From Planctomycetia bacterium (GTDB lineage: Bacteria > Planctomycetota > Planctomycetia > Gemmatales > HRBIN36), in contig JAEUIE010000054.1 of assembly GCA_016795155.1 (NCBI GenBank), positions 1,755-65,754 on the forward strand: DNA of 64,000 nucleotides. The letters run 5' to 3'. Below, one piece after another: positions 14,597 to 49,342 of the stretch. Within the stretch, counting starts at the first letter, position 1, and the number at the start of each line of letters is the position of its first letter. The translations under genes were made by a program, and so were the position numbers. The notes beneath the pieces were generated by a model that was not told where the DNA came from, searched no databases, and worked only from the letters and a program-made list of their open reading frames with translations.

Positions 14597-14871
14597 TTCG
14601 TTGTTGTAACAACCCGTGACTGTCACATTGGTCGAACGGGTTCGTTCATGCCCCTTTCAGTAAGTTCGCACGAGTAACTATGCGGTGAATGGGCACGGTT
14701 AGCGTGAGTACACGCAAACCGTAGCACCCTGTCTGCATGACTTTAAGGCGAGAGTACTCAATCCTGTTGCGTGCTGACTGCTGCGCAGTGGCACACACAA
14801 GATCCTCTAGACCATGCAGGAATTCCTGCCAGGTCAATTCATTTCAGAGTCAATAACCGGAGATAACTTCC

Positions 14872-25050: not shown

Positions 25051-25051
25051 G

Positions 25052-25411
25052 TTATTTTCCTTTCTCACGATGCATGGATCGTAAATGTTCATCCATTCGC
25101 TTGTCAGCCAGCGGGATATTTGCCTTGTACCATCTTTTGTTGCCACGTTTATTTCCGCCTAACAGCAGGATGGCACGTCTGGCAGGATCAAATGCAAACA
25201 ACACTCGAAATGGATCACCACCCTGCTGTATTCGAAGTTCTTTCATGTTGGAATGTCTAGACCCTTTGACAGTATCCACATAAGGCCGCCCCAGCGTTGG
25301 TCCAAATTCGGCAAGCAATTCCGCATGCGCCAGGACATTCACCTGAACAGCTTCCGGCTGCACCAGCAGCCAGTTATCGAATGCTTCATGAGTAATGATA
25401 CTCCATGCCAT
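25052..25411 (-). CDS. RelE/ParE-superfamily toxin (Gp49/HigB-like)
   Basis: MAWSIITHEAFDNWL...MKELRIQQGGDPFRVLFAFDPARRAILLLGGNKRGNKRWY matches the Gp49-like killer pattern. The ORF-track N-terminal extension to 25546 runs through a repeat array and is unlikely to be coding. Confidence 0.75.
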   Translation of the reverse strand: MAWSIITHEAFDNWLLVQPEAVQVNVLAHAELLAEFGPTLGRPYVDTVKGSRHSNMKELRIQQGGDPFRVLFAFDPARRAILLLGGNKRGNKRWYKANIPLADKRMDEHLRSMHREKGK

Positions 25412-25488
25412 GTATCCATCATAATTCCATCGAAGGAATATGTAAAGGCCATCTAAAGATCTGGTGTTTTTCCTCCAATTCCTTGTTC

Positions 25489-25556
25489 GTCTCATGTTGA
25501 GACGCCCTGAGACAATCTGAGACACCATGAGACACTTTAACTGCACAGATTGAGAC
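25489..25556. promoter_or_regulatory. Phased TGAGAC repeat array (candidate operator or iteron)
   Basis: TGAGAC occurs at 25498, 25508, 25518 and 25528, spaced exactly 10 bp apart. A further copy is at 25551 and an inverted GTCTCA is at 25489, which forms the palindrome cgtctcatgttgagacg. Confidence 0.55.
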
Positions 25557-25658
25557 TAACTGTCTTTATGAACACATTGTAACTATACGTATGCTCTTTA
25601 CCACACGGCATTTCTTACGGTACTAAGTGGTTTACTTCACTTTACCGAGGAGCAGGTC

Positions 25659-27074: not shown

Positions 27075-27313
27075 CACCTCGAAAGGACAACTGCGATGAA
27101 TTCCCGTCCAGCTAAACTCTGTCGGGCCAGACCCTGCTTGCCTGCAGGCTCGACTGTCTTGCGTCAAGACAAACGACCAAAACACATCATGAAACGACGC
27201 CATGAAGCAGGCGATGGCGTCAGATACATCCGTTGCGGTGGAGGCTACCGGGTGCTCCGCCGTTATCAACTTCCCGGCGATGATCGAAACAAATAACCCA
27301 GGAGGATCTATCC

Positions 27314-28051
27314 ATGCAGGTGAAAGAGAAACCAGCCAGGCTGGAAACGCTGCGACATGCTTCTTACCAGATCATGTCCGAAGCTGTTGCTGAGCGTAAC
27401 GAACGGCTGGTACGCAATGTCGTACTGCTCGGCACACAAAGCAGAAATGGGTATCGCTACAGCCAGGCTGCGATGCAGTCAGCGATACCGCTCTATGAAA
27501 ACCGCCCGGTCTTTCTTGATCATGCTGAGGAGCATCATGCTCCGATGCGACGCCGATTGCGAGATTATGCCGGCCAGGTGCTGTCGCCCCGTTTTGAAGA
27601 AGGCAAACTGCGAGGCGACCTGCGACTGCTCGGGCCGCATACGTCCTGGCTGTTCGATCTGATGGAAGCTGCACCGCACGATATCGGCATGAGCCACGTG
27701 GTGCTGGGACGACGCAGTGCCCAGAGCCAGGAAGTGGAACACATCGAGCGGGTGGTGTCGGTAGATATCGTGGCATTCCCAGCCACCACACAATCATTTC
27801 AGGAAGGGGACAACGGTGAAGGCAGTATTCAACAACTACTGCAACAGTCATCGCTGCCAGCCTTGTTACGCACGGCTTTTATTCGTGAAGCGTTGGCGAT
27901 GCATCCGGAACCTGCCCAGTTGCTGAAGCTGCTGGAAGAATGGGCAGCGCTGCTGGATCGCGATGTGTCGCCATCTTCGTTGAAACGCACTGTTCCTGAA
28001 GGGATTAACGCCGGTGCGAAACAAGCACTGATGCGTGCAATTCGCGGGTAA
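27314..28051 (+). CDS. Prohead protease (HK97/S78-like), possibly with a C-terminal scaffold segment
   Basis: SRNGYRYSQAAMQSAIPLYENRPVFLDH...FEEGKLRGDLRLL...HDIGMSHVV fits the S78 layout with His and Ser candidates. An AGGAGG RBS lies upstream. Confidence 0.55.
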   Translation: MQVKEKPARLETLRHASYQIMSEAVAERNERLVRNVVLLGTQSRNGYRYSQAAMQSAIPLYENRPVFLDHAEEHHAPMRRRLRDYAGQVLSPRFEEGKLRGDLRLLGPHTSWLFDLMEAAPHDIGMSHVVLGRRSAQSQEVEHIERVVSVDIVAFPATTQSFQEGDNGEGSIQQLLQQSSLPALLRTAFIREALAMHPEPAQLLKLLEEWAALLDRDVSPSSLKRTVPEGINAGAKQALMRAIRG

Positions 28052-28116
28052 TGTTCCTCCACGGACTGCTGCCCGTGGTTTTTAGTTTTCGACATTTTTT
28101 ATCACAAGGAGTCATC

Positions 28117-29325
28117 ATGATTCGACAGGATTTACGAGCGCTCAGGCATTCGATGGGGCCTCGCGGGTTCTATGAATGTGTCCAGAACCTGCTCGATACG
28201 CGGGAATTGTCCCCCGACGATTTCAGCCTTCGGCAACTCTGGGAAGCCTGTGTCGGGCCAACTGCCCAGACGCTACCCACGCTGGCAGCCCGGCAACGAG
28301 TCTACGTTGCTGAGATCGATCAACTGAATGAGCCACTCAGCGAAGCTGATCTGGGAATTAACCTGTTTCAGACGGTCACGGGAGCCGTCATCGCCCGTCG
28401 GGTGATGGATGCCTACGACCAGGCAGCAGGCATTGGCGATCAACTGGTTACACTTGAACGGTCTTCCGTACGGTCGGAACGTATCCCAGGTTTCACAGCA
28501 CTACAAGGGCCACGTGAAGTAAAAGAGGGCATGCCTTACGAGGAAGCGAGCTTTGGCGACAAGTTTGTCAGCACCGTGGAGAGCAAGAAAGGCCGGCTGC
28601 TTTCCATCACGGAAGAAGCCGTGCATTTTGATCAGACGAATGAACTGCTGAGGCGTGCCGCCCGGTTGGGTGAAGCGACGCGTGCTGAGCGAGAGAAGAC
28701 GATTGTGCGGGGAGTGGTGGATGCTGATTACAACGCCACGCTGAGCACTGGTGTTTATCGCCCTTCGGGCACACTGCAGGAACTCTATCCCGATAATGCT
28801 TCCCTGCTGAATGTGATCGGGCCGGAGAACACCGCGGAAGGTTTTGACGCTGCGGTGCCACTGACTGATTGGACCTCGCTGGCTTTACCTTTGCAGTACC
28901 ACGCGGTCTATGTCAAGGATGATCGGCATGGGCCGGAAAGTGGTGAGCCGATAGCCTGGCAACCTCGCATTCTGCTGGTGCCCAAGTCGCTGGAAATCAG
29001 GGCGCTGCAGATCGTCAATGCCACACTGGTTCCCGCGACATCGGGTGGCACTGCATTTGGGGGTAATCCTCTTCGCGGCGCGTTCACCGTACTGGCTTCC
29101 GCTTATCTCGATCAAATCAGCACCAGCGATTGGTATCTGGGTGATTTCTCCCGGCAGTTCATCTGGAAGGAAATCTGGCCGGTGCAGGTGTTCCGGCAAA
29201 GTGCTCAGGATGGTGATGGTTTTGACCGCGACGTCGTGGCCCGTTTCAAAGTGCGATACTTCGGTGGCATCAATGCTCTCGATCATCGCTTTGTGCTCAA
29301 GATGATCGGGGAAGAGGAAGAGTAA
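28117..29325 (+). CDS. Major capsid protein (HK97-fold type)
   Basis: 403 aa from the ATG at 28117, with an AAGGAG RBS. Its position after the portal and protease genes, its size, and a strong stem-loop pair directly downstream are all typical of capsid genes. Confidence 0.6.
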   Translation: MIRQDLRALRHSMGPRGFYECVQNLLDTRELSPDDFSLRQLWEACVGPTAQTLPTLAARQRVYVAEIDQLNEPLSEADLGINLFQTVTGAVIARRVMDAYDQAAGIGDQLVTLERSSVRSERIPGFTALQGPREVKEGMPYEEASFGDKFVSTVESKKGRLLSITEEAVHFDQTNELLRRAARLGEATRAEREKTIVRGVVDADYNATLSTGVYRPSGTLQELYPDNASLLNVIGPENTAEGFDAAVPLTDWTSLALPLQYHAVYVKDDRHGPESGEPIAWQPRILLVPKSLEIRALQIVNATLVPATSGGTAFGGNPLRGAFTVLASAYLDQISTSDWYLGDFSRQFIWKEIWPVQVFRQSAQDGDGFDRDVVARFKVRYFGGINALDHRFVLKMIGEEEE

Positions 29326-37700: not shown

Positions 37701-38161
37701 GGCACCGGCTGCATCATCGATGTGATGGATGTCAGGAAGAGGGGTGAGGGGACAGAAGTCAGGGGTGAGGAGGCAGTATTCTCCCCTCTCCCCTCTGGGG
37801 AGAGGGGTTGGGGGTGAGGGGATTCTATCTGAGCGGATGTTTGAAGCCCCAGGAGCGACTTCAAGACCTTGAGCCTGCCTCCAGGTTCATCGCGATCAGG
37901 CACTTCGACAGGGCGACAGCCCAGAAAGGTTTCCAGATCGTCGCTCCAGACATCAATATCGGTGGCATGTGCCAGGACGATGAGCGTGGGACCCGCATTC
38001 ATTTCCGCCAGGGAAGCAGCAGACAGAGCAGCGGAAGAACCCCAGGCGCCATCGATGGTGCCTGCCCGGTTTTTTCTGAGCGCAGCCAACACATCAGCGA
38101 AGCCAGGGTGTTCCCTGAGCAGCGCTGGCAATTGTGTTAGCGACGTAATGCGTGATGCCAT
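34754..38161 (-). CDS. mfd: Transcription-repair coupling factor Mfd
   Basis: 1135 aa. The CarD/RNAP-interacting region is GIARYKGL. Helicase motif I is GDVGYGKTEVALRAAF, motif II is VIIDEEQRFGV, and the C-terminal side carries QLRGRVGR and a TRG-like region. Confidence 0.95.
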   Translation of the reverse strand: MASRITSLTQLPALLREHPGFADVLAALRKNRAGTIDGAWGSSAALSAASLAEMNAGPTLIVLAHATDIDVWSDDLETFLGCRPVEVPDRDEPGGRLKVLKSLLGLQTSAQIESPHPQPLSPEGRGENTASSPLTSVPSPLFLTSITSMMQPVPSPAALAAQSRELVKDDEVRLESLITWLVEGGYTRTEVVELPGEFSKRGGILDIYPADADRPVRLEFFGDIIDSIRRFAPETQRSQEAIDHVNVTVFTQQGLSDTVPFTRYLPAGAIVILVEPADLREQAKVFLERVDDIKGLFSIDATFKHLIAHPSVHITALPTISAEATCHLQIESVERFSGDAAKVKEELATLSGEIVIACPSKGEQQRLSELLNAASTAPTKEESSKSKKKNAPSTSLSTQDSALRTDSSGLSTLLLPGHIRSGFRLVNSQLTVLGAQELFRRDAAATSHRISVRKYETRAIESFLDLAEDDLVVHVNHGIARYKGLQVLDTKGQLSEHMLLEFAAGTKMYVPTDKIDLVQKYVGGGNTAPELSKLGGTTWAKRKEKVREAVLDLAAEMVDLQAQRSTLPGFSYPADSVWMNEFESAFPYEETPDQHTAIGDVKKDLEHPHPMDRLLCGDVGYGKTEVALRAAFKAVDAGKQVAVLVPTTVLAEQHYRTFSTRLAAFPFKVACLSRFRRPGEQKEMVKQLNAGQLDIAVGTHRLLSKDVTFKDLGLVIIDEEQRFGVEHKEKLKKLRSQVHVLTMTATPIPRTLHMSLLGIRDISNLETPPQGRMPIETRICRFDPELVRHAIRRELAREGQIYFVHNRVFDIEAVAHRLQQIVPEARILIGHGQMNERELEQVMIQFVKHQADILLATTIIESGLDIPNTNTIFIDDADRYGLADLHQLRGRVGRYKHRAYCYLLLDPNRKLTDIAAKRLKAIEEFRELGAGFKIALRDLEIRGAGNILGAEQSGHIASVGYELYCQLLEEAVRRAKKQPVRQMIEVTVELPWPAFLPASYVEGQKAKIEVYRRLGRVKSLDRLADFQDELADRYGPLPEPVTNLIKMHELRILAAKWSVAHIRLEGKDLVLEYRQRNRIDKLAALSGPVPELPNQSRIPGNRLRVVDDETAYYRLYLDEEKTPEGMYGCLKGLFS
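36926..36980 (-). repeat. Short tandem gtgctgagtcctg-type repeats inside mfd (low-complexity linker)
   Basis: agtgctgagtcctgaagaatcagtcctgagtgctgagtcctgcgtgctgagtgaag encodes STSLSTQDSALRTDSSGLST within a Lys/Ser-rich insert. Confidence 0.7.
37741..37821 (-). repeat. GGGGAGAGGGG/GGGGTGAGGGG dispersed repeat copy, in frame within mfd
   Basis: ctcccctctcccctctggggagaggggttgggggtgagggg, with flanking ggggtgagg half-copies, is translated as ESPHPQPLSPEGRGENTASSPLTSVPSPL. Confidence 0.85.
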
Positions 38162-40646: not shown

Positions 40647-42125
40647 ATGTCTGCTGTTGCTGATGCTCCCAAAACCAAACGGCCCACTGTTCACCTGCCC
40701 CAGCGCAAGTTGCTGATCGATGGCAAACACCACGATGCCATGTCGGGGAAGACTTTTCCCACCGTGAACCCGGCTACCGAAGAAAAGATTGCCGATGTGC
40801 CCTATGCTGGCAAGGAAGATGTCGATCTGGCTGTGAAAGCTGCAACGCACGCTTTCAACGAAGGTGCCTGGCCCAAGATGGATGCCCGCGACCGGGGTCG
40901 GCTGCTTTACAAGCTCGCTGACCTTATTGAAAAGAACATCGACGACCTGGCTGCTCTCGAATCGCTCGACAATGGCAAGCCCATTCGTGAATCGCGGCAT
41001 GGCGACTTGCCTCTGGTCATCGACTGTCTGCGCTATTACGCTGGCTGGGCTGACAAGATTCAGGGCGAAGTGGTGCCTGTCCGTGGAGGCAACTTCTGTT
41101 ACACCAAGCGCGAGCCGGTGGGCGTTGTCGGGCAGATCATCCCATGGAACTTCCCCATGCTGATGACTGCCTGGAAATGGGGTCCTGCCCTGGCTGCTGG
41201 TTGCACCATCGTCATGAAGCCGGCTGAACAGACTCCACTGAGTTGTCTGCGCATGGGCGAACTGGCCATGGAAGCAGGCTTTCCACCTGGTGTCATCAAC
41301 ATCCTGACTGGCTTTGGCGACACTGGCTCGGCCCTGGTGCAACACCCAGGCGTCGACAAGATCGCCTTCACCGGCCACACCGATACCGCCAAGATCATCA
41401 TGAAGGAATCAGCTGCCACGCTCAAGCGGCTGACTTTCGAACTGGGCGGCAAGAGCCCGAACATTGTCTTTGCTGATGCTGACCTGAACGAAGCAGCAGC
41501 GGGCGCGTTCCTGGGCATCTACCTCAACCAGGGGCAGTGCTGCTGTGCAGGCTCTCGCCTGTTCGTGGAAGAGAAGGCTCACGATCAGGTGGTGGATATT
41601 CTGCAGAAGAAGGCCAAAGCTCATCGCGTGGGCGATCCGTTCGATATCGCCACCGAGCAAGGCCCGCAGATTGATAAGGATCAGTTCGACAAGATCATGC
41701 ACTACATCGACGCTGGCAGGAAGCAGGGCGCCAAGTGCCTGGCGGGCGGCGAACGGCAAGGGGACAAAGGCTTCTTCATCAAGCCGACCATCTTTGCTGA
41801 TGCGAAGGATGATATGGACATCATGAAGGAAGAAATCTTCGGCCCGGTGCTGAGCATCACACGGTTCAAGGATGTGAGCGAAGTGATCAAGCGTGCCAAC
41901 GCCACCAACTACGGTTTAGCCGCAGCAGTGTGGACGAAGGACATCAACAAGGCTCACCGCATTGCTGATGCAGTGCGAGCGGGCACTGTCTGGATCAACT
42001 GTTACGACGCCTTCGACGCCGCCGCCCCATTCGGTGGTTTCAAACAAAGCGGCCAAGGCCGCGAGCTGGGCGCCAAGGGCCTGGATGCGTATACCGAGAC
42101 GAAGACGGTGGTGATTAAGTTGTAA
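40647..42125 (+). CDS. NAD(P)-dependent aldehyde dehydrogenase
   Basis: The motifs are [17 protein letters not shown], the catalytic FELGGKSP and [11 protein letters not shown] (Glu and Cys), and EEIFGPV. Confidence 0.95.
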
Positions 42126-42135
42126 CACTCTTACT

Positions 42136-42174
42136 CCCCTCTCCCTCCCGGGGAGAGGGGCCGGGGGTGAGGGG
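42136..42174. repeat. GGGGAGAGGGG/GGGGTGAGGGG dispersed repeat copy
   Basis: cccctctccctcccggggagaggggccgggggtgagggg lies immediately after the aldehyde dehydrogenase stop. Confidence 0.9.
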
Positions 42175-42219
42175 TATCCTTTTTCGTATTAAACCCGATG
42201 AGAACCTACGCCTGCATTG

Positions 42220-42320
42220 CAGCCCCGAAAGGGGCGACCAGCCAGTAGCCAGGGGTGACCGAAGGGAACCCCTGGTAAGAGTTCCAAAAAGAATTCTCCA
42301 GGCACCCTGAAGGGGTGTGC
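42220..42320 (-). repeat. Hairpin-rich about 100-bp repeat, inverted copy (left flank of the RM gene)
   Basis: Its reverse complement aligns with 46151..46249. Identical blocks are caccccttcagggtgcc, ccaggggttcccttcggtcacccctggcta and gtcgcccctttcggggctg. Confidence 0.9.
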
Positions 42321-42384
42321 ATCTCCGGACTCTAGTCTGCTCCATATAGCTTTGCACTCCTGTTTCAGTTACAATTCGCCGCCT

Positions 42385-45300
42385 ATGAAACAATCTACTG
42401 TTCCAACAATCAACGAAGTCGACTTCTGCGGAAAGATGGCGACTGCAGCGACTACATTCTTTGCTAACAACCCAGGTCGATGCCCATTTATAGAAGCTCG
42501 GATTGAAGGTTTAGGCAGCAGTAGAAGCAAAAACGCACGAAAAGATCTGCGTTTCTATGGCCCAAATCAAAAAATCCTACTCACTGGTGAAGTAAAGTTA
42601 CCAGGTAACACCAGCGCGTTCGATTCAAAGGTGGTAAAGGATGCTCACGACAAAGCAGAAGAGGCGATAGTCCAGTATTTCTTTACTTGGGATGTTAACA
42701 CCTTTGTGCTATGGGATCGTTCCCAATGGAAAAAGCCGCTTCTGGAACGACGAATGAAGGTCTGGCAATTACGGCTTAACCTAGCAAGCCCGCAAGAAGT
42801 CGCCCGAACCGAATCACTTGACCACATTGAAAAACGATTTCTTCCGGATCTTCTACTTGATCTATCCGACATAGTATCTGGCCTCAAGCGTGACTGGGCC
42901 TTGCCTCAGGACGAAGTCTTCCTGCGTTCATTGGAAAGTCATCTTGAATGGCCAGTGGCACTTCTGCGATTACACCTTCACCAGAAAACAGAGACTGATA
43001 AAGGATTCGATTTACGACTCCAAGAGTGGATGGTTACCAACGATCTTCAGGTAAGACGAACCCAGCCGGATGAATGGAGAAAAGCGCTCGATACTGCTGC
43101 GCGATCGCTAGCCTATATCTGGACGAATCGACTTATTTTCTACAAAGCGCTGCGCGCACGTTTTCCGGAATTGCCCAAACTCGAACTTGGGTCCAACATC
43201 AAGAACAAGCAGCAAGCATTGAGAAGACTTGATGATCTGTTTACGAAAGCTGCAAAACGCAGTGGCGATTATGAATCGTTGCTGTTTCCCGAAACACATG
43301 ACTGGGCCAATGAATTGGTTTTTGTGCCCGAGGGTTCAGTTGATGCCTGGCGTGGTTTTCTTCGAGGTATTGAGAGTGTCGACTTCCATGAAGTCTCATC
43401 AGATGTTATCGGGCTCATCTTTCAAAAGCTGGTCAGCCCTGAAACCCGTCATCGCTATGGACAGCATTTTACCGGTCCTGATCCAGTCGATTTGATCAAC
43501 TCGTTTTGCATCCGTAAAGCCGATGCAAAAGTTCTTGATCCCGCCTGTGGTTCTGGTTCATTCCTCGTGCGCGCTTATTACCGTAAGCGTGCTATGAACT
43601 CCAGACGCTCTCACGTGGACATGCTGGGTGATCTCTTCGGATGTGACGTTTCTTTGTATCCGGCTCATCTGGCAACGCTCAATCTGGCAGCCCGTGAAAT
43701 CAACGACGAAGCGAATTATCCGAGGATTGAACGGCGTGACTTTTTCGACATCAAGGCAGGGAAGCCTTTCTGTCACATCCCTGAACAACCAAGTGGTGAA
43801 CAGGTTGCTATTAAACTGCCTGAACTCGATGCTGTCGTCGGCAATCCCCCTTATGTTCGACAAGAGAAGATTGCCAAGAAAGATAAGCCAAAGTATGCCA
43901 AGGTTGTTGATGACGCATTCAAGGGCACTGAACTATCCGGGCGGGCTGACTTACATTGTTATTTCTGGCCCCATGCAGCCAGGTTTTTGAAAGAAGGGGC
44001 AGCATTCGGATTCCTGACCAGCGGGCAATGGCTGGATGTTGATTATGGATTTGATTTACAACGATGGATTCTCAAGCATTTCAAGATTATTGCCATTATG
44101 GAGAGTTCCACCGAACGATGGTTTCCCGATGCACGGGTGAAGACTTGTATTACGATTCTTGAACGATGTAGTGATGAGGCAGATCGTCGGAAGAACACTG
44201 TACGCTTCGTCCGTTTCGAGAAACCCCTGGCCGATATCATTGGCAAACCTGCAACGGGTGGTGTTGGTGAAGAAGCGGAAGACCAGGAGCGAATCCGACA
44301 ACAGGCCGTTGATCGAGTTCGTGATGCTATCGAACGGTCAACCCGCAATTGTCACGATGACCGGTGGCGAATACTGGTTAAACGACAAGGAGACTTATGG
44401 GATGATGGGGTTAGAGTCGGGGCTATCCTCAAGGATGTTCCAGTCGACGAATCAGATGAAGAGGATGATACAGAACAGAACAGCGAGAGTTTATCCAAGT
44501 ATGCCATCGCAGCCGAAGGCGATTATGCTGCAGGAAAGTGGGGCCGTTACCTGCGTGCTCCTGATTTGTATTTCGAAATCATGGAGAGAATTAAGGGCCG
44601 CCTTGTACCGTTGGGACAAATAGTGGACATTCGATTTGGTGTGAAGACCGGCTGCGACGCGTTCTTTATGCCCAAGGATGTTACCGATTACTTACTTGAA
44701 CAGTACCCCAAAGAGAACGTGTTCCTGGATGCTGTTGGAATATCTCGAAAGAAAGTATCCAATGGCTCATTAAAGATCATTGAAGATGGCGACGGAACCT
44801 ATCATCCAATCGAACCCCAATTTATTAGGCCTGAAGTTCACAGCTTGATGAAGGTAGATAGACCAGTTGTTAGAGAGAACGATCTTGATCGCGTTGTGCT
44901 ATTGGTCAAATCTCCCTTATCGGCGATCAAAGGCACGTTTGCCTATCGATATGTGAAATATGGAGAGCAAGCGACCTACGCCAGTACGAAGAGCAAGGCT
45001 GTGCCTGTACCTGAACGTTCGACCTGTGCTGCTCGTGATCCTTGGTACGACCTAACCAAACTTGTCAATCCTGGGTTTGCATTCTGGCCTAAATCTCAAC
45101 AATATCGGCACATAATTCCTGCAAATCCGAAAGAGTTAGTGTGCAACTGTAATCTTTATGATTTAGGGGCGAGAGAGTTGAACAAGCAAGATCAACAAGT
45201 GCTTGTGGCCATAATTAATAGCACGCTGATTGGTTTGTTCAAAACTTTCTATGGTCGGTATGCAGGCACAGAAGGCAATCTCAAAACCGAAGTAATCGAC

Positions 45301-46134
45301 GTGAATTTGATCGAAGTTCCTGATCCGCGCGGCGTTGATAACCGTATCGGGGAGAGACTGAAAGCAGCTCTGAGGTCAATATCAAGTCGAGTCGTTGAAG
45401 GCTTGGTAGAGGAAGAACTAAAAGAATGCCATACATATCAACGCGCAATTGAATTATCCAAACGACCGATCACACTTCCTGAAGAACTTAAACAATCTGA
45501 CCGTCGTGAACTAGATGATGCTGTTTTTGAACTGCTTGGTGTAGCTGACCAAAAAGAACGATCCGCCCTTGTTGATCGCCTGTATGAAGAAACGACTTTG
45601 CATTTCCGCGATGTACGAGTCACTGAAATCCAGAAGATGGAGGACCGGCGTAAAGGCGGTAGCACCAGATTTGGCATCACCGATCAAGCTGCCGACGTCT
45701 GGGATGCATTAGACCTTTCCGATATGACTCCATTGACTGAGTGGGTTACCGATCAGGCAGCCGATGAATGGGAAGTTATCAATATTCCAAGTGAGCGCCC
45801 GGTCTATTTATCAGAAGATACACTTTTCGATGCCGAGACAGTCTATTTCGGCAGGGGAAAACGGCAGCACATGGTCTGTCAATCACGAGGCGAAGCCGAG
45901 CTTGTCGCTCGAATGGCTGATCTTGGGGTAAGTGATGATGTAACTGTTCCTAAGCGTCATGAAGATGCCCAGAAACTATTGAAGCGATTGAATGACAGGC
46001 ATTTAGTAGCAGTGAAGCGACTCAGTGAACTCGCAGCTAGTCGTAGCGGTGACAGTGCAATGCAGGATGATGTTTTTAAGCTGCTTGAGCGTTGGTATGT
46101 GCTCGGGAAACCTACGAAAGATAAAAACAGATAA
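42385..46134 (+). CDS. Type IIG restriction-modification enzyme (PD-(D/E)xK nuclease + gamma-class N6-adenine MTase + specificity region), MmeI/Eco57I-like
   Basis: The N-terminus DLRFYGPNQKILLTGEVK is a D-X14-E-X-K motif (compare MmeI DLFWPG..LIEMK). MTase motif I is VLDPACGSGSFLV and motif IV is VVGNPPYV. FGVKTGCDAFF is TaqI_C-like. It is 1249 aa from the ATG at 42385. Confidence 0.75.
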   Translation: MKQSTVPTINEVDFCGKMATAATTFFANNPGRCPFIEARIEGLGSSRSKNARKDLRFYGPNQKILLTGEVKLPGNTSAFDSKVVKDAHDKAEEAIVQYFFTWDVNTFVLWDRSQWKKPLLERRMKVWQLRLNLASPQEVARTESLDHIEKRFLPDLLLDLSDIVSGLKRDWALPQDEVFLRSLESHLEWPVALLRLHLHQKTETDKGFDLRLQEWMVTNDLQVRRTQPDEWRKALDTAARSLAYIWTNRLIFYKALRARFPELPKLELGSNIKNKQQALRRLDDLFTKAAKRSGDYESLLFPETHDWANELVFVPEGSVDAWRGFLRGIESVDFHEVSSDVIGLIFQKLVSPETRHRYGQHFTGPDPVDLINSFCIRKADAKVLDPACGSGSFLVRAYYRKRAMNSRRSHVDMLGDLFGCDVSLYPAHLATLNLAAREINDEANYPRIERRDFFDIKAGKPFCHIPEQPSGEQVAIKLPELDAVVGNPPYVRQEKIAKKDKPKYAKVVDDAFKGTELSGRADLHCYFWPHAARFLKEGAAFGFLTSGQWLDVDYGFDLQRWILKHFKIIAIMESSTERWFPDARVKTCITILERCSDEADRRKNTVRFVRFEKPLADIIGKPATGGVGEEAEDQERIRQQAVDRVRDAIERSTRNCHDDRWRILVKRQGDLWDDGVRVGAILKDVPVDESDEEDDTEQNSESLSKYAIAAEGDYAAGKWGRYLRAPDLYFEIMERIKGRLVPLGQIVDIRFGVKTGCDAFFMPKDVTDYLLEQYPKENVFLDAVGISRKKVSNGSLKIIEDGDGTYHPIEPQFIRPEVHSLMKVDRPVVRENDLDRVVLLVKSPLSAIKGTFAYRYVKYGEQATYASTKSKAVPVPERSTCAARDPWYDLTKLVNPGFAFWPKSQQYRHIIPANPKELVCNCNLYDLGARELNKQDQQVLVAIINSTLIGLFKTFYGRYAGTEGNLKTEVIDVNLIEVPDPRGVDNRIGERLKAALRSISSRVVEGLVEEELKECHTYQRAIELSKRPITLPEELKQSDRRELDDAVFELLGVADQKERSALVDRLYEETTLHFRDVRVTEIQKMEDRRKGGSTRFGITDQAADVWDALDLSDMTPLTEWVTDQAADEWEVINIPSERPVYLSEDTLFDAETVYFGRGKRQHMVCQSRGEAELVARMADLGVSDDVTVPKRHEDAQKLLKRLNDRHLVAVKRLSELAASRSGDSAMQDDVFKLLERWYVLGKPTKDKNR

Positions 46135-46150
46135 TACAAGTTTCAGTTTC

Positions 46151-46249
46151 AGCACCCCTTCAGGGTGCCGGGAGGATTTTTTCTGTTCCTTTTCCAGGGG
46201 TTCCCTTCGGTCACCCCTGGCTAACATCGGGTCGCCCCTTTCGGGGCTG
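46151..46249 (+). repeat. Hairpin-rich about 100-bp repeat, direct copy (right flank of the RM gene)
   Basis: It contains three local hairpins: cacccc-ttca-gggtg, ccagggg...cccctgg and gcccc-tttc-ggggc. It begins 17 nt after the RM stop. Confidence 0.9.
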
Positions 46250-46260
46250 ATGCTTGCCCT

Positions 46261-46289
46261 GGGTGCCACCGTTTGCGTACTCGCTAACG
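46261..46289 (+). repeat. 29-nt box, copy 1
   Basis: gggtgccaccgtttgcgtactcgctaacg is identical to 47030..47058. Confidence 0.9.
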
Positions 46290-46360
46290 ATGCGGCATGC
46301 CCGCTTGATCCTCTCCTTATTTCAGGGTACGATAACTTGAGAAATCAAGAGACAACACTT

Positions 46361-46570
46361 ATGGCCGCTAGAAGCAAAAAGACTGATCCCAGGCTCGCCA
46401 AAATCTATGCCGATGTGCGTCGCAATTTCACTGCTGCGGATTTGCAGAAATATACCGAAGTCACACCGACAGTGCCTCTTCTGAGCATCATTGAGGAGTT
46501 GGAAGACATCCAGTCCAAGCACGATGCCAAAAAAAGTCGAACCGGCAAACGGCGCAGGAAAACAGCGTAG
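46361..46570 (+). CDS. Putative antitoxin (69 aa, basic C-terminus)
   Basis: MAARSKKTDPRLAKIYADVRRNF... lies 15 nt upstream of a RelE/ParE-like small ORF. The call rests on context only. Confidence 0.4.
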   Translation: MAARSKKTDPRLAKIYADVRRNFTAADLQKYTEVTPTVPLLSIIEELEDIQSKHDAKKSRTGKRRRKTA

Positions 46571-46585
46571 CTTTGGAGCACCTTC

Positions 46586-46873
46586 ATGTTTTATGTGGAT
46601 GCTTCGGCAGAATTGCGTAAACGTATCAAGCACTTGCATCAGATTGCCAACGAACAAGATCGTGGCGAATTGTTTATCAGTGCTTTCAAGGAAATATACT
46701 CTCGTCTGCATGACAATGCGTTTGAATTCGGCGAACCACTTTATTCTCTTCCAATTCTCAGACTTCAAATCCGTACCGGTTCAGTTCTTCCGATTGTCTT
46801 AACCTATAGTGTTTCAAGTGATCATCCAATCGTTGTAATTAAAAGTGTTGAACTCCTTGATCATAAACGATAA
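46586..46873 (+). CDS. Putative RelE/ParE-superfamily toxin
   Basis: 95 aa. FEFGEPLYSLPILRLQIRTGSVLPIVLTYSVSSDHPIVVIKSVELL resembles the ParE/RelE C-terminal beta-sheet pattern. Confidence 0.45.
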   Translation: MFYVDASAELRKRIKHLHQIANEQDRGELFISAFKEIYSRLHDNAFEFGEPLYSLPILRLQIRTGSVLPIVLTYSVSSDHPIVVIKSVELLDHKR

Positions 46874-46885
46874 TTCGATGCTCAG

Positions 46886-47025
46886 CCTCCCCATGCCAAT
46901 ACGCCCTCTTCACCCTGATGAACTGGAAGCCTGGCTCACCATGCGTGAACGGCTGTGGCCTGATTCGCCGCGAGGGGATTTGGCGGAAGAACAGCGGGAG
47001 ATCATCGCCCAGCCGGAGCGGAATG
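46886..47025 (+). pseudogene. Duplicated 5' fragment (44 codons) of the AAC(6')-like gene
   Basis: The 140 bp are about 94% identical to 47858..47997, including the RBS region and MPIRPLHPDELEAWLTMRERLWPDSPRGDLAEEQREIIAQPERN. Similarity ends abruptly at the 29-nt box. Confidence 0.85.
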
Positions 47026-47029
47026 CACC

Positions 47030-47058
47030 GGGTGCCACCGTTTGCGTACTCGCTAACG
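47030..47058 (+). repeat. 29-nt box, copy 2
   Basis: gggtgccaccgtttgcgtactcgctaacg is identical to 46261..46289. Confidence 0.9.
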
Positions 47059-47154
47059 GCGCTACGAGTTCAACACGTTTACCCACCTCAAGTTGCCTTT
47101 TACCCCTTAATCTGTTATCGTCAAAGCGTAGCTTCAGAGCGAAGGAGGTTAGGT

Positions 47155-47394
47155 ATGACCATCAAAGTCGTCTATGAAAATGGCGTGTTTCGTCCGCTGA
47201 AGCCTATTCGTGATGTCAAGGAAGGAACGGAAGCAGAAGTAACCGTTATGAAGCCTCCTCGTCCTCAGCCCACACCGGAGGAAGTCATTGAACGTTTGCT
47301 TCGCATCGCTGACATGCCGTTGGAAGGTGGCGGCAAGCCATTTAGCGGACAGGATCATGATAAAATCCTTTACGGTGATCCTCATCAATCATGA
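47155..47394 (+). CDS. DUF104 (AF2212-like) antitoxin
   Basis: MTIKVVYENGVFRPLKPIRDVKEGTEAEVTV is the canonical DUF104 N-terminus. A GAAGGAGG RBS lies upstream, and the stop overlaps the PIN toxin start. Confidence 0.8.
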   Translation: MTIKVVYENGVFRPLKPIRDVKEGTEAEVTVMKPPRPQPTPEEVIERLLRIADMPLEGGGKPFSGQDHDKILYGDPHQS

Positions 47395-47786
47395 TTTTCG
47401 TTGACACGGGCGCATGGTACGCTTTACTCGTTAATGATGATCCTGATCATCAAAAAGCTCGAGCCTGGGTTGCCGCAAATAGAGAGCGACTGGTTTTGAC
47501 TGACTACATTCTTGACGAAACTTTGACACTGCTGCGAGCACGTGGTCAAAAGAAACAGGCTATTACGTTTGGTTATGACATTCTTGATTTAGAGGTTGCT
47601 GACTTCTATCTTGTGTCCCTCGAAGACATCGAATCAGCCTGGGATATCTTCCAAAAGTATTCTGATAAAGAATGGAGCTTCACCGATTGCACCAGCAAAG
47701 TTGCCATGGAACGATTGGGGATTACTACAGCCTTTGCTTTCGATCAACATTTCCGTCAATTTGGGAATGTCGTGGTTGTACCGTAA
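47391..47786 (+). CDS. vapC: PIN-domain toxin VapC
   Basis: MIFVDTGAWYALLVNDDPDHQKA...LTDYILDETLTLL...SFTDCTS carries the PIN acidic residues. It overlaps the antitoxin by ATGA. Confidence 0.85.
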   Translation: MIFVDTGAWYALLVNDDPDHQKARAWVAANRERLVLTDYILDETLTLLRARGQKKQAITFGYDILDLEVADFYLVSLEDIESAWDIFQKYSDKEWSFTDCTSKVAMERLGITTAFAFDQHFRQFGNVVVVP

Positions 47787-47864
47787 AATTTGCAGACAAA
47801 CCATCGTTCCTTCTGGTATACAGCACAAGATAGAACACTTCCGTCACTAACACTGACCCTCCCC

Positions 47865-48323
47865 ATGCCAATACGCCCACTTCACCCGGATGAACTGGAA
47901 GCCTGGCTCGTCATGCGGGAACGGCTTTGGCCTGATTCGCCGCGAGGGGACTTGGCAGAAGAACAGCGGGAGATCATCGCCCAGCCGGAGCGGAATGGTG
48001 TGCTAGTGGCAGAGTTACAGGGTACGTTGATTGGGTTCGTGGAAGTGTCGCTCCGCGACTGGGCGGAAGGTTGCGAGACACGGCCGGTAGGTTACCTGGA
48101 AGCGTGGTTTGTTGAGCCTGAGCATCGTCGCAGTGGCGTGGGCCGACATTTGGTGGAGGCAGCGGAGAACTGGGCACGTGAGCGGGGCTGCACCGAGATG
48201 GGGTCGGATGCTGAAGTGTGGAATGAAACCAGCCACGCTGCCCATCGGGCCTTGGGGTTTGGAGAAGTCTGCCGGGTGGTGGCGTATAGCAAGAAGATTG
48301 CAGGGGAAATACCTTCCTCCTGA
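47865..48323 (+). CDS. AAC(6')-I-like aminoglycoside N-acetyltransferase (GNAT)
   Basis: LRERLWPDSP..., IGFVEVSLRDWAEGCETRPVGYLEAWFVEPEHRRSGVGRHLVEAAENWARERGCTEMGSDAEVWNETSHAAHRALGFGE is collinear with AAC(6')-Iy/Iz-type enzymes as I remember them. Confidence 0.7.
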   Translation: MPIRPLHPDELEAWLVMRERLWPDSPRGDLAEEQREIIAQPERNGVLVAELQGTLIGFVEVSLRDWAEGCETRPVGYLEAWFVEPEHRRSGVGRHLVEAAENWARERGCTEMGSDAEVWNETSHAAHRALGFGEVCRVVAYSKKIAGEIPSS

Positions 48324-48354
48324 CGAACGTGTATGACGATGCCTATCCTTACTG

Positions 48355-48396
48355 TTCCGTCACCCCTAGCTACCATCTGGCCGCCCCTCCGGGGCT
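48355..48396 (+). repeat. Partial third copy of the hairpin-rich repeat
   Basis: ttccgtcacccctagctaccatctggccgcccctccggggct corresponds to ttcggtcacccctggctaacatcgggtcgcccctttcggggct at 46205..46247. Confidence 0.75.
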
Positions 48397-48417
48397 TTCA
48401 CCAGATAGAATAACCCC

Positions 48418-49125
48418 ATGAAAACCCTCGGCATCATTGGTGGCATTGGGCCGGAATCGACGATTGATTACTACCGGTCGATCATCGCTCAATACAAGCA
48501 GCGGGTACATACTGAGCATCAGCCTCACATTCTTATCCAGAGCATTGATCTGAAGCGGATGCAGAACTGGCTGGCCGAGAATAACCTTGCTGCCATAACT
48601 GACTATCTCGTGGAGAACCTGTGGCATGTGTCTGCGGGCGGAGCTGACTTTGCAGTGCTGGCAGCGAACACAGCACATATTGTTTTCGATGAGGTATCTA
48701 AACAGTCGCCTTTGCCTTTGATCAGCGTGGTAGAGGTTGCTTGCCAGAAAGCCTGCGAGTTAAAGCTGCGGAAACTTGGGCTGTTCGGCACAAAGTATAC
48801 GATGACAGCGCCGTTCTATCCGCAGGCATGTCAGCGCTATGGATTGCAACTGGTCATACCCCATGCCGATGAGATTGCGGACATCCATCACATTTACTTT
48901 CAGCAATTGCTGTTAAACCAGTTCAAGGATGAATCACGGCAGACAATGGTACAGATTATTGAACGCATGCATCAGGAAGAACAGATTGAAGGACTGATAC
49001 TAGGCGGCACCGAGTTGCCTTTGTTGCTGCGGGATACTGTTGTGCCTGGGGTAGTGTTTCTCGATACGACGCTGATTCATGTGGAGCGTATTGTGGATGG
49101 CATTTTGAGTTCAACATCTGCTTGA
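48418..49125 (+). CDS. Aspartate/glutamate racemase family protein
   Basis: MKTLGIIGGIGPESTIDYY, LAANTAHIVFDEV and LILGGTELPLL are the Asp/Glu racemase signatures. The canonical Cys positions were not checked. Confidence 0.8.
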   Translation: MKTLGIIGGIGPESTIDYYRSIIAQYKQRVHTEHQPHILIQSIDLKRMQNWLAENNLAAITDYLVENLWHVSAGGADFAVLAANTAHIVFDEVSKQSPLPLISVVEVACQKACELKLRKLGLFGTKYTMTAPFYPQACQRYGLQLVIPHADEIADIHHIYFQQLLLNQFKDESRQTMVQIIERMHQEEQIEGLILGGTELPLLLRDTVVPGVVFLDTTLIHVERIVDGILSSTSA

Positions 49126-49131
49126 ACATCT

Positions 49132-49275
49132 CCCCTCTCCCCCTTGGGGAGAGGGGCCGGGGGTGAGGGGTTTCATGCATGGCGAAGCCCTTCGTTCTAC
49201 GCGATTATTAGATGAAGGGCTGCGCCACTTATTGATAACCCCTCACCCTAACCCTCTCCCCGGGAGGGAGAGGGG
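49132..49275. repeat. Inverted pair of GGGGAGAGGGG/GGGGTGAGGGG repeats (MITE-like unit)
   Basis: 49132..49170 (cccctctcccccttggggagaggggccgggggtgagggg) and 49239..49275 (its reverse complement, diverged) flank a 68-bp spacer containing gaagccc...gaagggctgc complementarity. Confidence 0.8.
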
Positions 49276-49342
49276 ACATTAGAAAAAAAGTTTGGAACAT
49301 GCAGCGCAGGAATTGTGCTTTGGTGGCTACTATATCTCAGAC

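What the first reader, a model, noticed from the sequence alone, without database searches (positions are those of the whole stretch)
46261..47997. Two unrelated TA cassettes share identical left (29-nt box) and right (140-bp aac 5' segment) boundaries
The order is box (46261..46289), then the putative antitoxin and RelE/ParE-like toxin, then the aac 5' fragment (46886..47025). This is followed immediately by the box again (47030..47058), then the DUF104-PIN pair, then the full aac(6')-like gene, whose first 140 bp (47858..47997) are about 94% identical to the fragment. The two cassettes encode different TA families, so this is not a simple tandem duplication. The junction aac-fragment|box at 47025/47030 looks like a recombination joint. 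The pattern resembles a cassette-exchange or insertion hot spot, conceptually like integron arrays or TA shufflons, but without an integrase in view. It also leaves a truncated, RBS-equipped 44-codon acetyltransferase N-terminus upstream of TA2.
Basis: seen in the sequence. Interest (0 to 1): 0.6.

Follow-up and report, generated by a model that had tools for sequence, protein, structure and literature searches.

The report
Rearranged toxin-antitoxin islet with repeats
Two unrelated toxin-antitoxin gene pairs sit in tandem in a planctomycete chromosome because an old recombination accident fused a truncated copy of the neighbouring aminoglycoside-acetyltransferase gene to a common hairpin repeat. 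The structure is real, but it is an ordinary product of general recombination in a variable gene islet, not a new cassette system.

Summary
A 29-nt box occurs twice (46261, 47030), and the aac(6') leader plus its first 133 nt occurs twice (46881-47025 and 47853-47997, 93% identical). These repeats bracket a RelE/ParE-fold pair (TA1) and an AF2212-like/PIN pair (TA2).

The two "boundaries" have different natures. The box is one arm of a dispersed REP-type hairpin family. There is a third copy at 14.7 kb, 32 metagenome stretches carry it, mostly as inverted REPIN-like doublets, and the stem shows compensatory changes. The aac repeat is a genuine local partial duplication. Its truncated copy is joined to the 5' edge of the REP at an illegitimate joint (GGAATG|CA|CCGGGTGCC). 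The same joint is present in a relative that is 7% diverged, so it arose once and is old.

Relatives show the ALDH-to-racemase interval to be a variable islet with five main layouts: TA2 only, TA1-TA2 without aac, TA1-aac without TA2, aac alone behind the TA2 promoter, and the tandem form. TA1 alleles are mosaics produced by homologous recombination.

No integrase, transposase or attC-like site was found in the 64 kb. The best model is additive, one-sided illegitimate recombination between two alleles at a REP hairpin, followed by loss and shuffling of modules by homologous recombination. Interest is modest.

The parts
40647..42125 (+). Aldehyde dehydrogenase, the conserved left flank of the variable islet
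   Evidence: 82-91% nt identity to the ALDH that flanks the same islet in L008, L010 and L023. Pfam Aldedh is recorded for the relatives' genes.
42220..42317 (-). Left copy of a 98-nt inverted repeat bracketing the RM gene
   Evidence: 86% identical over 98 nt to 46153-46249 in inverted orientation.
42352..46134 (+). Type IIG restriction-modification enzyme (1260 aa), a variable insert
   Evidence: PADLOC REase_MTase_IIG 8.3e-45. Pfam N6_Mtase, Eco57I and MmeI_Mtase. Absent from relatives, which carry other genes here: orf242 in L010, orf151 in L023, orf140 in L012.
46153..46249 (+). Right copy of the 98-nt inverted repeat
   Evidence: Homology to relative L010 starts immediately after it, at 46249-46254 (one search compared).
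46257..46292 (+). REP-type hairpin 'box 1' (exact repeat 46261-46289); one arm only
   Evidence: nhmmer with a profile built from metagenome copies gives E 2.2e-9. Predicted hairpin: stem CCGTT/AACG plus inner stem GCG/CGC. A degenerate homologue lies at the same place in L010 (p about 0.0005).
46305..46349 (+). TA1 leader: promoter-like TTGATC-N17-TACGAT and palindrome CTTGA-GAAA-TCAAG (inferred)
   Evidence: Read from the sequence. Identical or nearly identical in L005 and L010. Not called by the consensus scan.
46361..46570 (+). TA1 upstream gene (69 aa), putative antitoxin
   Evidence: Always precedes the toxin, with a 15-nt gap, in every TA1 locus where the upstream gene could be seen (a partial gene in L003 and L015). 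No Pfam, NCBIfam or PADLOC hit.
46586..46873 (+). TA1 toxin (95 aa), RelE/ParE-superfamily fold
   Evidence: AlphaFold2 pLDDT 97. Foldseek best match RelE1 (E 8e-4, TM 0.67-0.74), followed almost only by RelE/ParE-superfamily toxins. 452 family representatives at E <= 1e-3. 3 of 60 members hit ParE_toxin weakly.
46881..47025 (+). Truncated copy of aac(6'): 12-nt leader plus codons 1-44. The ORF reads on to 47177.
   Evidence: It is 97% identical to the 5' end of the full-length aac that follows TA1 in L005.
47023..47029 (+). Illegitimate joint: aac nt 133 (..GGAATG) | CA | CC-GGGTGCC (5' edge of the REP)
   Evidence: The joint is conserved over all 24 nt compared (GGAGCGGAATGCACCGGGTGCCAC) in L006 and L007, which are 93% identical overall. 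Metagenome REP copies often begin CC-GGGTGCC.
47026..47085 (+). REP-type hairpin 'box 2' (exact repeat 47030-47058) plus part of the REPIN-like central spacer
   Evidence: nhmmer E 6.9e-11 for the arm. A profile of full doublets extends the match to 47078-47085. Hairpin prediction.
47087..47154 (+). TA2 promoter region: TTGCCT-N17-TATCGT at 47093-47121 (inferred)
   Evidence: The hexamers and the 17-nt spacing are conserved in L004, L006, L008 and L013. BLAST homology to L008, L012 and L013 starts at 47069-47087. In L004 the same region lies directly upstream of aac.
47155..47394 (+). TA2 antitoxin, AF2212-like (DUF104)
   Evidence: Pfam PF01954 4e-9.
47391..47786 (+). TA2 toxin, PIN/VapC-like
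   Evidence: Pfam PIN 5.3e-13. Acidic residues D5, E43, D99 and D118 are present (sequence). Orthologues of 73-98% identity lie at the same locus.
47853..47997 (+). Second copy of the repeated aac leader plus first 133 nt, continuing into the intact gene
47865..48323 (+). Intact aac(6') (152 aa)
   Evidence: NCBIfam AAC_6p_group_E 151.8 bits against a cut-off of 140.
48355..48388 (+). Partial third copy of the 98-nt repeat, between aac and the racemase
   Evidence: D7, I6. Present in L001 and largely missing in L014.
48418..49125 (+). Asp/Glu racemase, the conserved right flank of the islet
   Evidence: Pfam 7.2e-39. Follows the islet in L001, L005, L008, L013, L014 and L023.
14694..14732 (-). 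Third, diverged copy of the box REP, in an unrelated intergenic region
   Evidence: nhmmer E 0.0017. The outer stem is compensated (ACGGTT/AACCGT) and the inner stem is lengthened to GCGTG-TACT-CACGC.

Best explanation
Setting. The interval between the aldehyde dehydrogenase and the Asp/Glu racemase genes of this Planctomycetia genome is a variable islet. In this genome it holds a type IIG RM enzyme, TA1, TA2 and aac(6').

The left repeat. The 'box' is one arm of a REP/REPIN-type hairpin element that is dispersed in this clade. One copy lies upstream of the TA1 promoter. A longer remnant (arm plus spacer) lies upstream of the TA2 promoter.

The right repeat. This is a true partial duplication. 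A TA1-linked aac allele was broken at nucleotide 133 and joined, by illegitimate recombination, to the 5' edge of the REP that precedes promoter-TA2-aac.

Most likely origin. One additive, one-sided event joined two alleles of the locus, [REP-TA1-aac] and [REP-promoter-TA2-aac]. It was either homology-facilitated illegitimate recombination or an unequal illegitimate crossover. One side resolved through homology and the other at the hairpin. The resident TA pair was kept rather than replaced. Keeping it is what post-segregational killing by a TA pair would favour.

Afterwards. Ordinary homologous recombination has acted on the structure. The 145-bp direct repeats allow loss of the 972-bp [REP-promoter-TA2-aac5'] unit, which yields TA1-aac. 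Alleles are also shuffled between lineages.

Shown: the repeat anatomy, the REP nature of the box, the conserved joint, the layouts in relatives, and the allele mosaicism. Inferred: the order of events, the one-sided recombination mechanism, the role of the hairpin as a breakpoint, and selection through TA addiction.
For: (1) The box is a REP-type element.
- A degenerate box pattern hits 32 metagenome stretches and no viral contig. Many of the stretches carry inverted pairs about 80 nt apart, forming 105-107-nt palindromes (z = -10 on folding).
- Each arm is its own hairpin. 93% of cells are paired, and 3 of 11 pairs show compensatory double changes (GC/CG, CG/UA, CG/GC). No shuffle out of 500 reached the observed score.
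- Singlet copies in lower-GC (53-54%) contigs and at 14.7 kb of this window lie in unrelated intergenic places.

(2) The joint arose once and is old. GGAATGCACCGGGTGCCAC is identical in L006 and L007, which are 93% identical overall.

(3) Layouts in relatives.
- ALDH-orf-promoter-TA2-racemase: L008, L023.
- TA1-51 nt-promoter-TA2-racemase, with no aac and no detectable box: L012, L013.
- TA1 followed by full aac and then racemase: L001, L005, L014.
- Degenerate box plus TA2 promoter region directly upstream of aac, with no TA: L004 (71% over 91 nt, E 2e-7, p about 0.0005).
- The tandem form: this window, and L010 together with L006 from the same samples.

(3a) The two aac 5' copies look like different alleles.
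- They differ at 8 of 132 nt: 6 changed codons are synonymous and 1 is not. They therefore diverged as working genes.
- The fragment is closer to the TA1-linked full gene of L005 (3.0%) than to its own neighbour (6.1%).
- The fragment in L006 shares allele-specific states with the full gene of L014.

(4) Homologous recombination is active here. TA1 of L014 is a three-block mosaic: runs of 19, 36 and about 20 informative sites follow the L010-like, window-like and L010-like alleles in turn.

(5) No dedicated recombination machinery was found.
- No integrase, transposase or Y1 transposase among about 45 ORFs.
- No Rfam family at the box.
- No plasmid match.

(6) Precedent. Module arrays separated by fragments of a conserved anchor gene have been attributed to homology-facilitated illegitimate recombination in Vibrio T6SS effector-immunity and Rhs loci (PMC5361080).
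Against:
- Paralogue divergence within the window (6.1%) is lower than the divergence between the window and L006 fragments (10.3%). This requires gene conversion or later allele import if the event predates their split.
- Box 1 and box 2 are identical over 29 nt in the window. In the relative, however, box 1 (L010) is only about 70% like box 2 (L006). A later conversion or re-copying of box 1 must be assumed.
- The TA1-TA2 adjacency without aac in L012/L013 fits an ancestral tandem TA arrangement at least as well as it fits two alternative alleles.
- A free-standing [REP-promoter-TA2-aac] allele without the upstream fragment was not observed directly.
- Classical homology-facilitated illegitimate recombination usually deletes recipient DNA rather than duplicating the anchor (own knowledge).
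- Contiguity of L010 and L006 is inferred only from shared contig ends.
Confidence: 0.6

Rival explanations
1. In-situ tandem duplication followed by reciprocal loss. An ancestor box-TA1-promoter-TA2-aac duplicated the segment from the box to aac nt 133, producing the aac|box joint. The first copy then lost promoter-TA2 and the second lost TA1.
For: - Tandem duplications with microhomology or REP elements at the join point are the commonest spontaneous bacterial rearrangement (own knowledge).
- TA1 immediately upstream of TA2, in the same order, is seen without aac in L012/L013.
- In L010 the box upstream of TA1 is followed by about 17 nt that resemble the start of the spacer after box 2.
Against: - It needs three events, two of them precise deletions.
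- The differences between the two aac 5' copies are almost all synonymous, and each copy groups with alleles from other genomes rather than with its neighbour. This is not what in-place decay of a duplicate predicts.
- No intermediate with duplicated TA pairs was found among the 13 related contigs recovered from protein look-ups.
Confidence: 0.2
2. REP insertion first. A mobile REP/REPIN copy inserted into aac at nt 133 in a TA1-aac allele. Ordinary double crossover with a REP-promoter-TA2-aac allele (REP on the left, aac/racemase on the right) then replaced the aac 3' part.
For: - The joint lies within 2-4 nt of the REP's 5' edge.
- The family exists as REPIN-like doublets, the form considered mobile (PMC3116915 and PMC3337134).
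- Presence/absence polymorphism of other small repeats occurs at this locus.
Against: - No aac 3' remnant follows the REP.
- No RAYT or other Y1 transposase is present in the window.
- REPs are extragenic almost by definition.
- Only singlets, not doublets, occur in this genome's window.
Confidence: 0.1
3. A dedicated cassette system. The box is a recombination site (attC-like, dif-like or RAYT-cleaved hairpin) that captures and exchanges gene cassettes.
For: - Both TA units are preceded by the same hairpin.
- The hairpin has conserved unpaired bases and a conserved loop, as single-strand recombination sites do.
- The islet is highly variable.
Against: - No integrase or transposase in 64 kb.
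- Box halves GTTTGCG and CGCTAAC do not fit the attC cores GTTRRRY / RYYYAAC (sequence).
- Other copies of the box lie next to unrelated genes: an ECF sigma factor gene, a DUF1559 gene and others.
- Relatives gain or lose TA1, TA2 and aac at points that are not box edges.
- One 'cassette' ends in a truncated gene.
Confidence: 0.05
4. Assembly artefact: a chimera of two strains, TA1-aac and TA2-aac, joined by the assembler.
For: - The source is a metagenome-assembled genome (P0121).
- Both single-module layouts exist in nature.
Against: - Assemblers switch paths inside shared sequence. The aac133|CA|REP joint is a novel junction, not shared sequence.
- The same joint was assembled independently in two other samples from a 7%-diverged strain.
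Confidence: 0.02

Closest known systems
REP / REPIN elements (repetitive extragenic palindromes and their inverted doublets; Bertels & Rainey, PMC3116915, PMC3337134)
   Same: - A roughly 35-nt imperfect palindrome that forms a hairpin, lies outside genes and is dispersed.
- Occurs as inverted doublets of about 106 nt with a spacer in metagenome relatives.
- Singlet remnants also occur.
- Coincides with rearrangement points.
   Different: - No RAYT gene seen (only 64 kb examined).
- Only three singlet copies in the window.
- The sequence family itself is undescribed: no Rfam hit and no full-text hit for the sequence.
- It spans hosts of 53% and 62% GC, which appear to belong to the Planctomycetes/PVC group.
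Orphan-module arrays made by homology-facilitated illegitimate recombination (Vibrio cholerae T6SS effector-immunity arrays, Rhs/CDI C-terminal displacement; PMC5361080)
   Same: - Unrelated two-gene modules in tandem, separated by a repeated fragment of a conserved neighbouring gene.
- Relatives carry single modules.
- No integrase.
- The resident protective gene is retained.
   Different: - Here the repeated anchor is the 5' end of a downstream resistance gene, not the conserved part of the toxin gene.
- The array has only two units.
- Both modules are complete TA pairs.
- The joint abuts a REP hairpin.
Integron gene-cassette arrays (including TA cassettes of chromosomal integrons)
   Same: TA pairs and an aac(6') gene in one orientation in a variable array, with a structured repeat between the units.
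   Different: - No IntI integrase.
- No attC architecture or core sites.
- Each unit has its own conserved promoter-like region.
- Unit borders in relatives do not coincide with the repeat.
Tandem chromosomal duplications with REP sequences at the join point (Salmonella his region, Shyamala et al. 1990; own knowledge, not checked here)
   Same: A REP element lies exactly at the novel joint of a duplicated segment.
   Different: In those cases the join is REP-by-REP. Here only one partner is a REP, and the other is inside a coding sequence.
Integration hot spots / defence islands between conserved core genes (own knowledge)
   Same: An RM enzyme, two TA pairs, a resistance gene and a nuclease-like ORF replace one another between two conserved housekeeping genes across relatives.
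   Different: - Small scale (0.7-6 kb).
- No mobile-element hallmark genes.

Membership tests
Integron cassette array | IntI tyrosine recombinase next to the array | tested here: not met
   Pfam scans of about 45 ORFs across the 64 kb found no integrase.
Integron cassette array | attC sites (R''-L''...L'-R', cores RYYYAAC / GTTRRRY) at the 3' end of each cassette | tested here: not met
   The box reads ..GTTTGCG TACT CGCTAAC.., and neither half fits the core consensus (sequence). The box belongs to a different hairpin family.
Integron cassette array | Cassettes gained or lost precisely at the recombination sites | tested here: not met
   Homology to relatives starts or stops at 47069-47087, at 46295, and at aac -12. 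None of these is a box edge.
REP / REPIN | Short imperfect palindrome folding into a hairpin, with the structure conserved across copies | tested here: met
   Hairpin predicted in every copy. 93% of cells paired, 3 pairs with compensatory changes, and no shuffle out of 500 reached the score.
REP / REPIN | Many dispersed extragenic copies in a genome | tested here: inconclusive
   3 copies in 64 kb, all intergenic. Copies lie in unrelated contexts in contigs of relatives (L025, L038, L046). The whole source genome could not be scanned, and the exact 22-mer is absent from the GTDB representative genomes.
REP / REPIN | Inverted doublets separated by a spacer (REPIN) | tested here: met
   9 complete doublets of 105-107 nt, plus further pairs, in metagenome contigs. 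None in the window itself.
REP / REPIN | Cognate RAYT (Y1 transposase) flanked by REPs | not tested
   None in the window. It is normally single-copy per genome, so 64 kb is uninformative.
Type II TA, RelE/ParE superfamily (TA1) | Toxin with the RelE/ParE fold | tested here: met
   pLDDT 97. The top 40 Foldseek hits are nearly all RelE/ParE-superfamily toxins (RelE, ParE, YoeB, HigB), with TM up to 0.74. Sequence-level support is weak: ParE_toxin hit in 3 of 60 relatives, best E 0.0013.
Type II TA, RelE/ParE superfamily (TA1) | Cognate antitoxin that neutralises the toxin and autoregulates the operon | not testable with these tools
   A conserved 69-aa upstream gene and a palindrome in the leader are the only evidence.
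VapBC-like TA (TA2) | PIN domain with four conserved acidic residues, preceded by a small antitoxin gene with overlapping stop and start | tested here: met
   Pfam PIN 5.3e-13 and AF2212-like 4e-9. D5, E43, D99 and D118 are present, and the genes share a 4-nt ATGA overlap (sequence).
AAC(6') aminoglycoside acetyltransferase | Score above the curated equivalog cut-off | tested here: met
   NF043067 AAC_6p_group_E, 151.8 bits against a cut-off of 140. Activity not tested.
HFIR-type displacement array | Repeated fragment of a conserved anchor gene between unrelated modules, with single-module relatives | tested here: met
HFIR-type displacement array | Illegitimate joint at short microhomology with one homologous end | tested here: inconclusive
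   The joint is defined to the base, and a possible ATG(C) overlap with the box flank is seen in L010. The parental sequences are unknown.

The most novel reading that the evidence does not exclude
The REP-type hairpin is an active single-strand recombination site, cut by a RAYT/IS200-like or other hairpin-recognising enzyme encoded elsewhere in the genome. In planctomycetes it would nucleate capture of gene modules next to itself. The aac|REP joint and the REP copies at module borders would then be products of a hairpin-directed, integron-like but integrase-independent cassette process.
Probability: 0.05. Interest if true: 0.75.

Novelty: new member of a known kind. Interest (0 to 1): 0.3.

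Why it matters
- It is a worked example of how chromosomal toxin-antitoxin pairs can pile up in tandem through additive recombination, leaving truncated anchor-gene fragments. Such events would be favoured because replacing a resident TA pair is lethal.
- It shows that shared 'cassette borders' can be a coincidence of a dispersed hairpin repeat and a single old duplication. This is a caution for sequence-only scans for new integron-like systems.
- Two by-products have some value. One is a previously undescribed REP/REPIN family shared by Planctomycetes-like genomes of very different GC content. The other is a RelE/ParE-fold toxin family that Pfam does not recognise.

Tried and rejected
Searches that found nothing useful
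- Exact look-ups of the window's own aac and PIN proteins found no contig. The source genome, probably the NCBI Planctomycetia MAG behind P0121, could not be retrieved.
- The exact 22-nt box core has no hit in the GTDB representative genomes. Taken alone this wrongly suggested a unique sequence. The degenerate pattern, built from the variants seen in L006 and L010, revealed the family.
- The racemase as a synteny anchor in genome contigs returned only 22-44% homologues from other phyla.
- Rfam at E <= 1, the plasmid collection, viral contigs and a full-text search for the repeat sequence all returned nothing relevant.
- The listing of cluster members gave no taxon names for the REPIN-bearing contigs. 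PVC affinity was inferred instead from DUF1501 and PSCyt/PSD genes.

Ideas considered and dropped
- Box-like sequence in L012/L013, L008 and L023: permutation tests were not significant (p 0.15-0.49). I dropped the idea that TA1 is flanked by box copies in all lineages.
- The TA2 -35 region as the degenerate right arm of a REPIN: not supported by a profile of full doublets.
- dif/Xer-like reading of the box (11+6+11): the arms are not inverted repeats of each other in that register (by eye).
- The box hairpin as an intrinsic terminator: no T-run, and the scan found no terminators in 46100-48450.

Superseded result
- The first TA1 toxin model, built from 4 sequences, had pLDDT 68 and only weak Foldseek E-values. 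It was superseded by the 60-sequence model.

Full report
**1. The observation**

- The 29-nt box GGGTGCCACCGTTTGCGTACTCGCTAACG occurs at 46261 and 47030. With up to three mismatches allowed it occurs nowhere else in the window, and none of 100 shuffles gave a match.
- The second repeat is 145 nt at 93% identity (46881-47025 and 47853-47997, period 972). It covers 12 nt of leader and the first 133 nt of an acetyltransferase gene.
- The downstream full copy (47865-48323) passes the NCBIfam equivalog cut-off for AAC(6') group E.
- Between box 1 and the fragment lie a 69-aa and a 95-aa gene (TA1). Between box 2 and the full gene lie an AF2212-like gene and a PIN gene (TA2).
- TA1 has no Pfam, NCBIfam or PADLOC hit. 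A profile search, however, finds 452 family representatives. With 60 of them as the alignment, the toxin folds at pLDDT 97. Its 40 best PDB matches are nearly all RelE/ParE-superfamily toxins (RelE, ParE, YoeB, HigB).

Two small corrections are needed. The truncated ORF runs 94 codons, to 47177. Neither copy of the leader has a Shine-Dalgarno-like sequence.

**2. What the box is**

The exact box core is absent from 185,579 representative genomes. Relatives showed which positions vary. A degenerate pattern built on that information hit 32 metagenome stretches and no viral contig.

- Many of the stretches carry two copies in inverted orientation about 80 nt apart. These form 105-107-nt palindromes that fold far better than shuffles (z = -10).
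- Each arm is also a hairpin of its own: outer stem CCACGGCT/AGCCGTGG, a T.T internal loop, inner stem GCG/CGC, and loop TACT.
- Across 19 copies, 93% of cells pair and three pairs show compensatory double changes. The window's CCGTT/AACGG stem is one of those compensated variants.
- A profile built only from the metagenome copies finds both boxes (E 7e-11 and 2e-9). It also finds a third, diverged copy at 14694-14732 on the other strand, in which the inner stem is lengthened by a compensated 2-bp insertion.
- Singlet copies in contigs of similar GC (L025, L038, L046) lie beside unrelated genes. L038 carries the window's exact variant. L046 also carries another repeat family of this window.
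- The doublet-bearing contigs have 58-65% GC (one at 72%). One of them encodes a DUF1501 plus PSCyt/PSD gene pair, typical of the Planctomycetes group.

The box is therefore a REP/REPIN-type element (PMC3116915, PMC3337134). Box 2 is the longer remnant, an arm plus part of the spacer reaching about 47085. Box 1 is an arm only.

**3. What the aac repeat is**

Contigs recovered through the closest homologues of aac, PIN and the TA1 toxin show the same interval between an aldehyde dehydrogenase and an Asp/Glu racemase in five layouts.

| Layout | Contigs |
|---|---|
| ALDH-orf-promoter-TA2-racemase | L008, L023 |
| orf-TA1-51 nt-promoter-TA2-racemase, no aac, no detectable box | L012, L013 |
| TA1-full aac-racemase | L001-3, L005, L014/15 |
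| Degenerate box plus TA2 promoter region directly upstream of aac, no TA | L004 |
| Tandem form | this window; L010 and L006 from the same two samples |

- L006 and L007 are 93% identical to the window and contain the same joint, GGAGCGGAATG|CA|CCGGGTGCCAC. The joint therefore arose once, is old, and is not an assembly artefact.
- The joint falls 2-4 nt from the 5' edge of the REP, because metagenome copies often begin CC-GGGTGCC.
- The two aac 5' copies in the window differ at 8 of 132 nt: six changed codons are synonymous and one is not.
- The fragment is closer to the full, TA1-linked aac of L005 (3.0%) than to its own neighbour (6.1%).
- The fragment in L006 shares allele-specific states with the full aac of L014.

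The copies thus look like two alleles that diverged as working genes. They do not look like a duplicate decaying in place.

**4. Recombination at the locus**

- TA1 of L014 is a clean three-block mosaic of window-like and L010-like alleles.
- The left part of the islet is replaced wholesale between relatives. In the window it holds a type IIG RM enzyme bracketed by 98-nt inverted repeats. Elsewhere it holds unrelated ORFs.
- Homology between the window and L010 resumes just left of box 1.
- A partial third copy of the 98-nt repeat between aac and the racemase is present in L001 and largely missing in L014. In L005 a 94-aa gene lies in that position.
- The repeat junctions examined in the islet therefore each sit next to a small repeat. 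No integrase, transposase or Y1 transposase was found in about 45 ORFs of the window.

**5. Most likely mechanism**

- A TA1-linked aac allele was broken at nt 133 and joined illegitimately to the REP edge that precedes promoter-TA2-aac. The other side resolved by homology.
- This amounts to homology-facilitated illegitimate recombination, or an unequal illegitimate crossover between two alleles. A hairpin is a plausible break or template-switch point.
- The outcome is additive. The resident TA pair is kept, as expected if losing it is lethal.
- The nearest described parallel is the arrays of orphan immunity genes and Rhs tips, which are separated by fragments of a conserved gene (PMC5361080).
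- Afterwards, the 145-bp direct repeats allow loss of the 972-bp unit. This reproduces the TA1-aac layout seen in close relatives of both allele groups, while homologous recombination moves alleles between lineages.

The order of events is not resolved. Weaknesses of this account:

- No free [REP-promoter-TA2-aac] allele was found.
- TA1-TA2 adjacency without aac exists in L012/L013.
- The paralogues are less diverged from each other than the orthologous fragments are.
- Box 1 and box 2 are identical in the window but only about 70% alike in the relative. This calls for later conversion.

The rivals are an in-situ duplication followed by two deletions, a REP insertion into aac followed by a double crossover, and a dedicated hairpin-directed cassette system. 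I rate them at about 0.2, 0.1 and 0.05.

**6. Comparison with known systems**

- It works like an HFIR-type displacement array built next to a REP.
- It is not an integron. No IntI was found, there is no attC architecture, each unit has its own conserved promoter-like region (TTGATC-N17-TACGAT and TTGCCT-N17-TATCGT, inferred from conservation), and the borders in relatives do not fall at the box.
- The REP family and the TA1 toxin family are new members of known kinds.

**7. Verdict**

The feature is real and more intricate than it first looks. It is explained by a dispersed hairpin repeat, one old illegitimate joint, and ordinary homologous recombination in a variable islet. Interest is 0.3.

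Noticed in passing
window 24733-29325: An HTH regulator gene (24733-25146, minus strand), a lambda-family phage portal gene (25659-27074, PF05136 2.6e-30) and a phage capsid gene (28051-29325). This is a prophage remnant or a gene-transfer-agent-like cluster, with no integrase anywhere in the window.
   Followed up: no
window 42220-42317, 46153-46249, 48355-48388: The 1260-aa type IIG RM gene is bracketed by 98-nt inverted repeats (86% identical), each made of several small hairpins. A partial third copy lies between aac and the racemase and is polymorphic among relatives: present in L001, mostly absent in L014. The RM gene may have arrived as a repeat-bounded unit.
   Followed up: partly
window 37780-37821, 42134-42178, 49129-49174, 49239-49276: Another repeat family, CCCCTCTCCC..GGGGAGAGGGGCCGGGGGTGAGGGG, lies after several genes, including both flanks of the islet. 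It is also found in metagenome contig L046 together with a box-type REP.
   Followed up: partly
L026-L056 (metagenome contigs), e.g. L027 3221-3335: An undescribed REPIN-like family: a roughly 106-nt palindrome with arms GGGTGCCACGGCTTG[C/G]GTACTC[G/C]CTAGCCGTGGTAGG. The two arms differ at two positions that remain paired within each arm's own hairpin but mismatch in the long hairpin. It occurs in contigs of about 62% GC that carry PVC-type genes. In L041 and L050 another small palindromic element is nested in its centre.
   Followed up: partly
window 46586-46873 and relatives P0244-P0393: The TA1 toxin belongs to a family of about 450 representative sequences (typically 100-105 aa) that Pfam, NCBIfam and PADLOC do not recognise, yet it has a confident RelE/ParE fold. 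Word-index search found only three close clusters, all at this same locus.
   Followed up: yes
L012 43-465; L005 1136-1420; L010 2154-2882; L023 9207-9662: Other occupants of the islet in relatives: a 140-aa ORF with a weak Hjc/PD-(D/E)xK-like hit (E 0.016), a 94-aa ORF between aac and the racemase (weak DUF6364 hit), a 242-aa membrane-like ORF, and a 151-aa ORF. None has a confident family assignment.
   Followed up: partly
L005 721-1075: The aac gene of L005 carries an internal deletion of about 79 nt relative to the window, L001 and L014. It is probably a pseudogene in that strain.
   Followed up: no
L001 61-351 / L002 / L003: The diverged TA1 toxin homologue upstream of aac in these contigs has an in-frame stop after about 27 codons, so TA1 appears to be decaying in that lineage. 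Its junction with aac keeps a longer native aac leader, shared with L004, than the window does.
   Followed up: no
window 4125-4607 (-): A second, unrelated GNAT acetyltransferase (Acetyltransf_3, 1.1e-20) is encoded elsewhere in the window.
   Followed up: no
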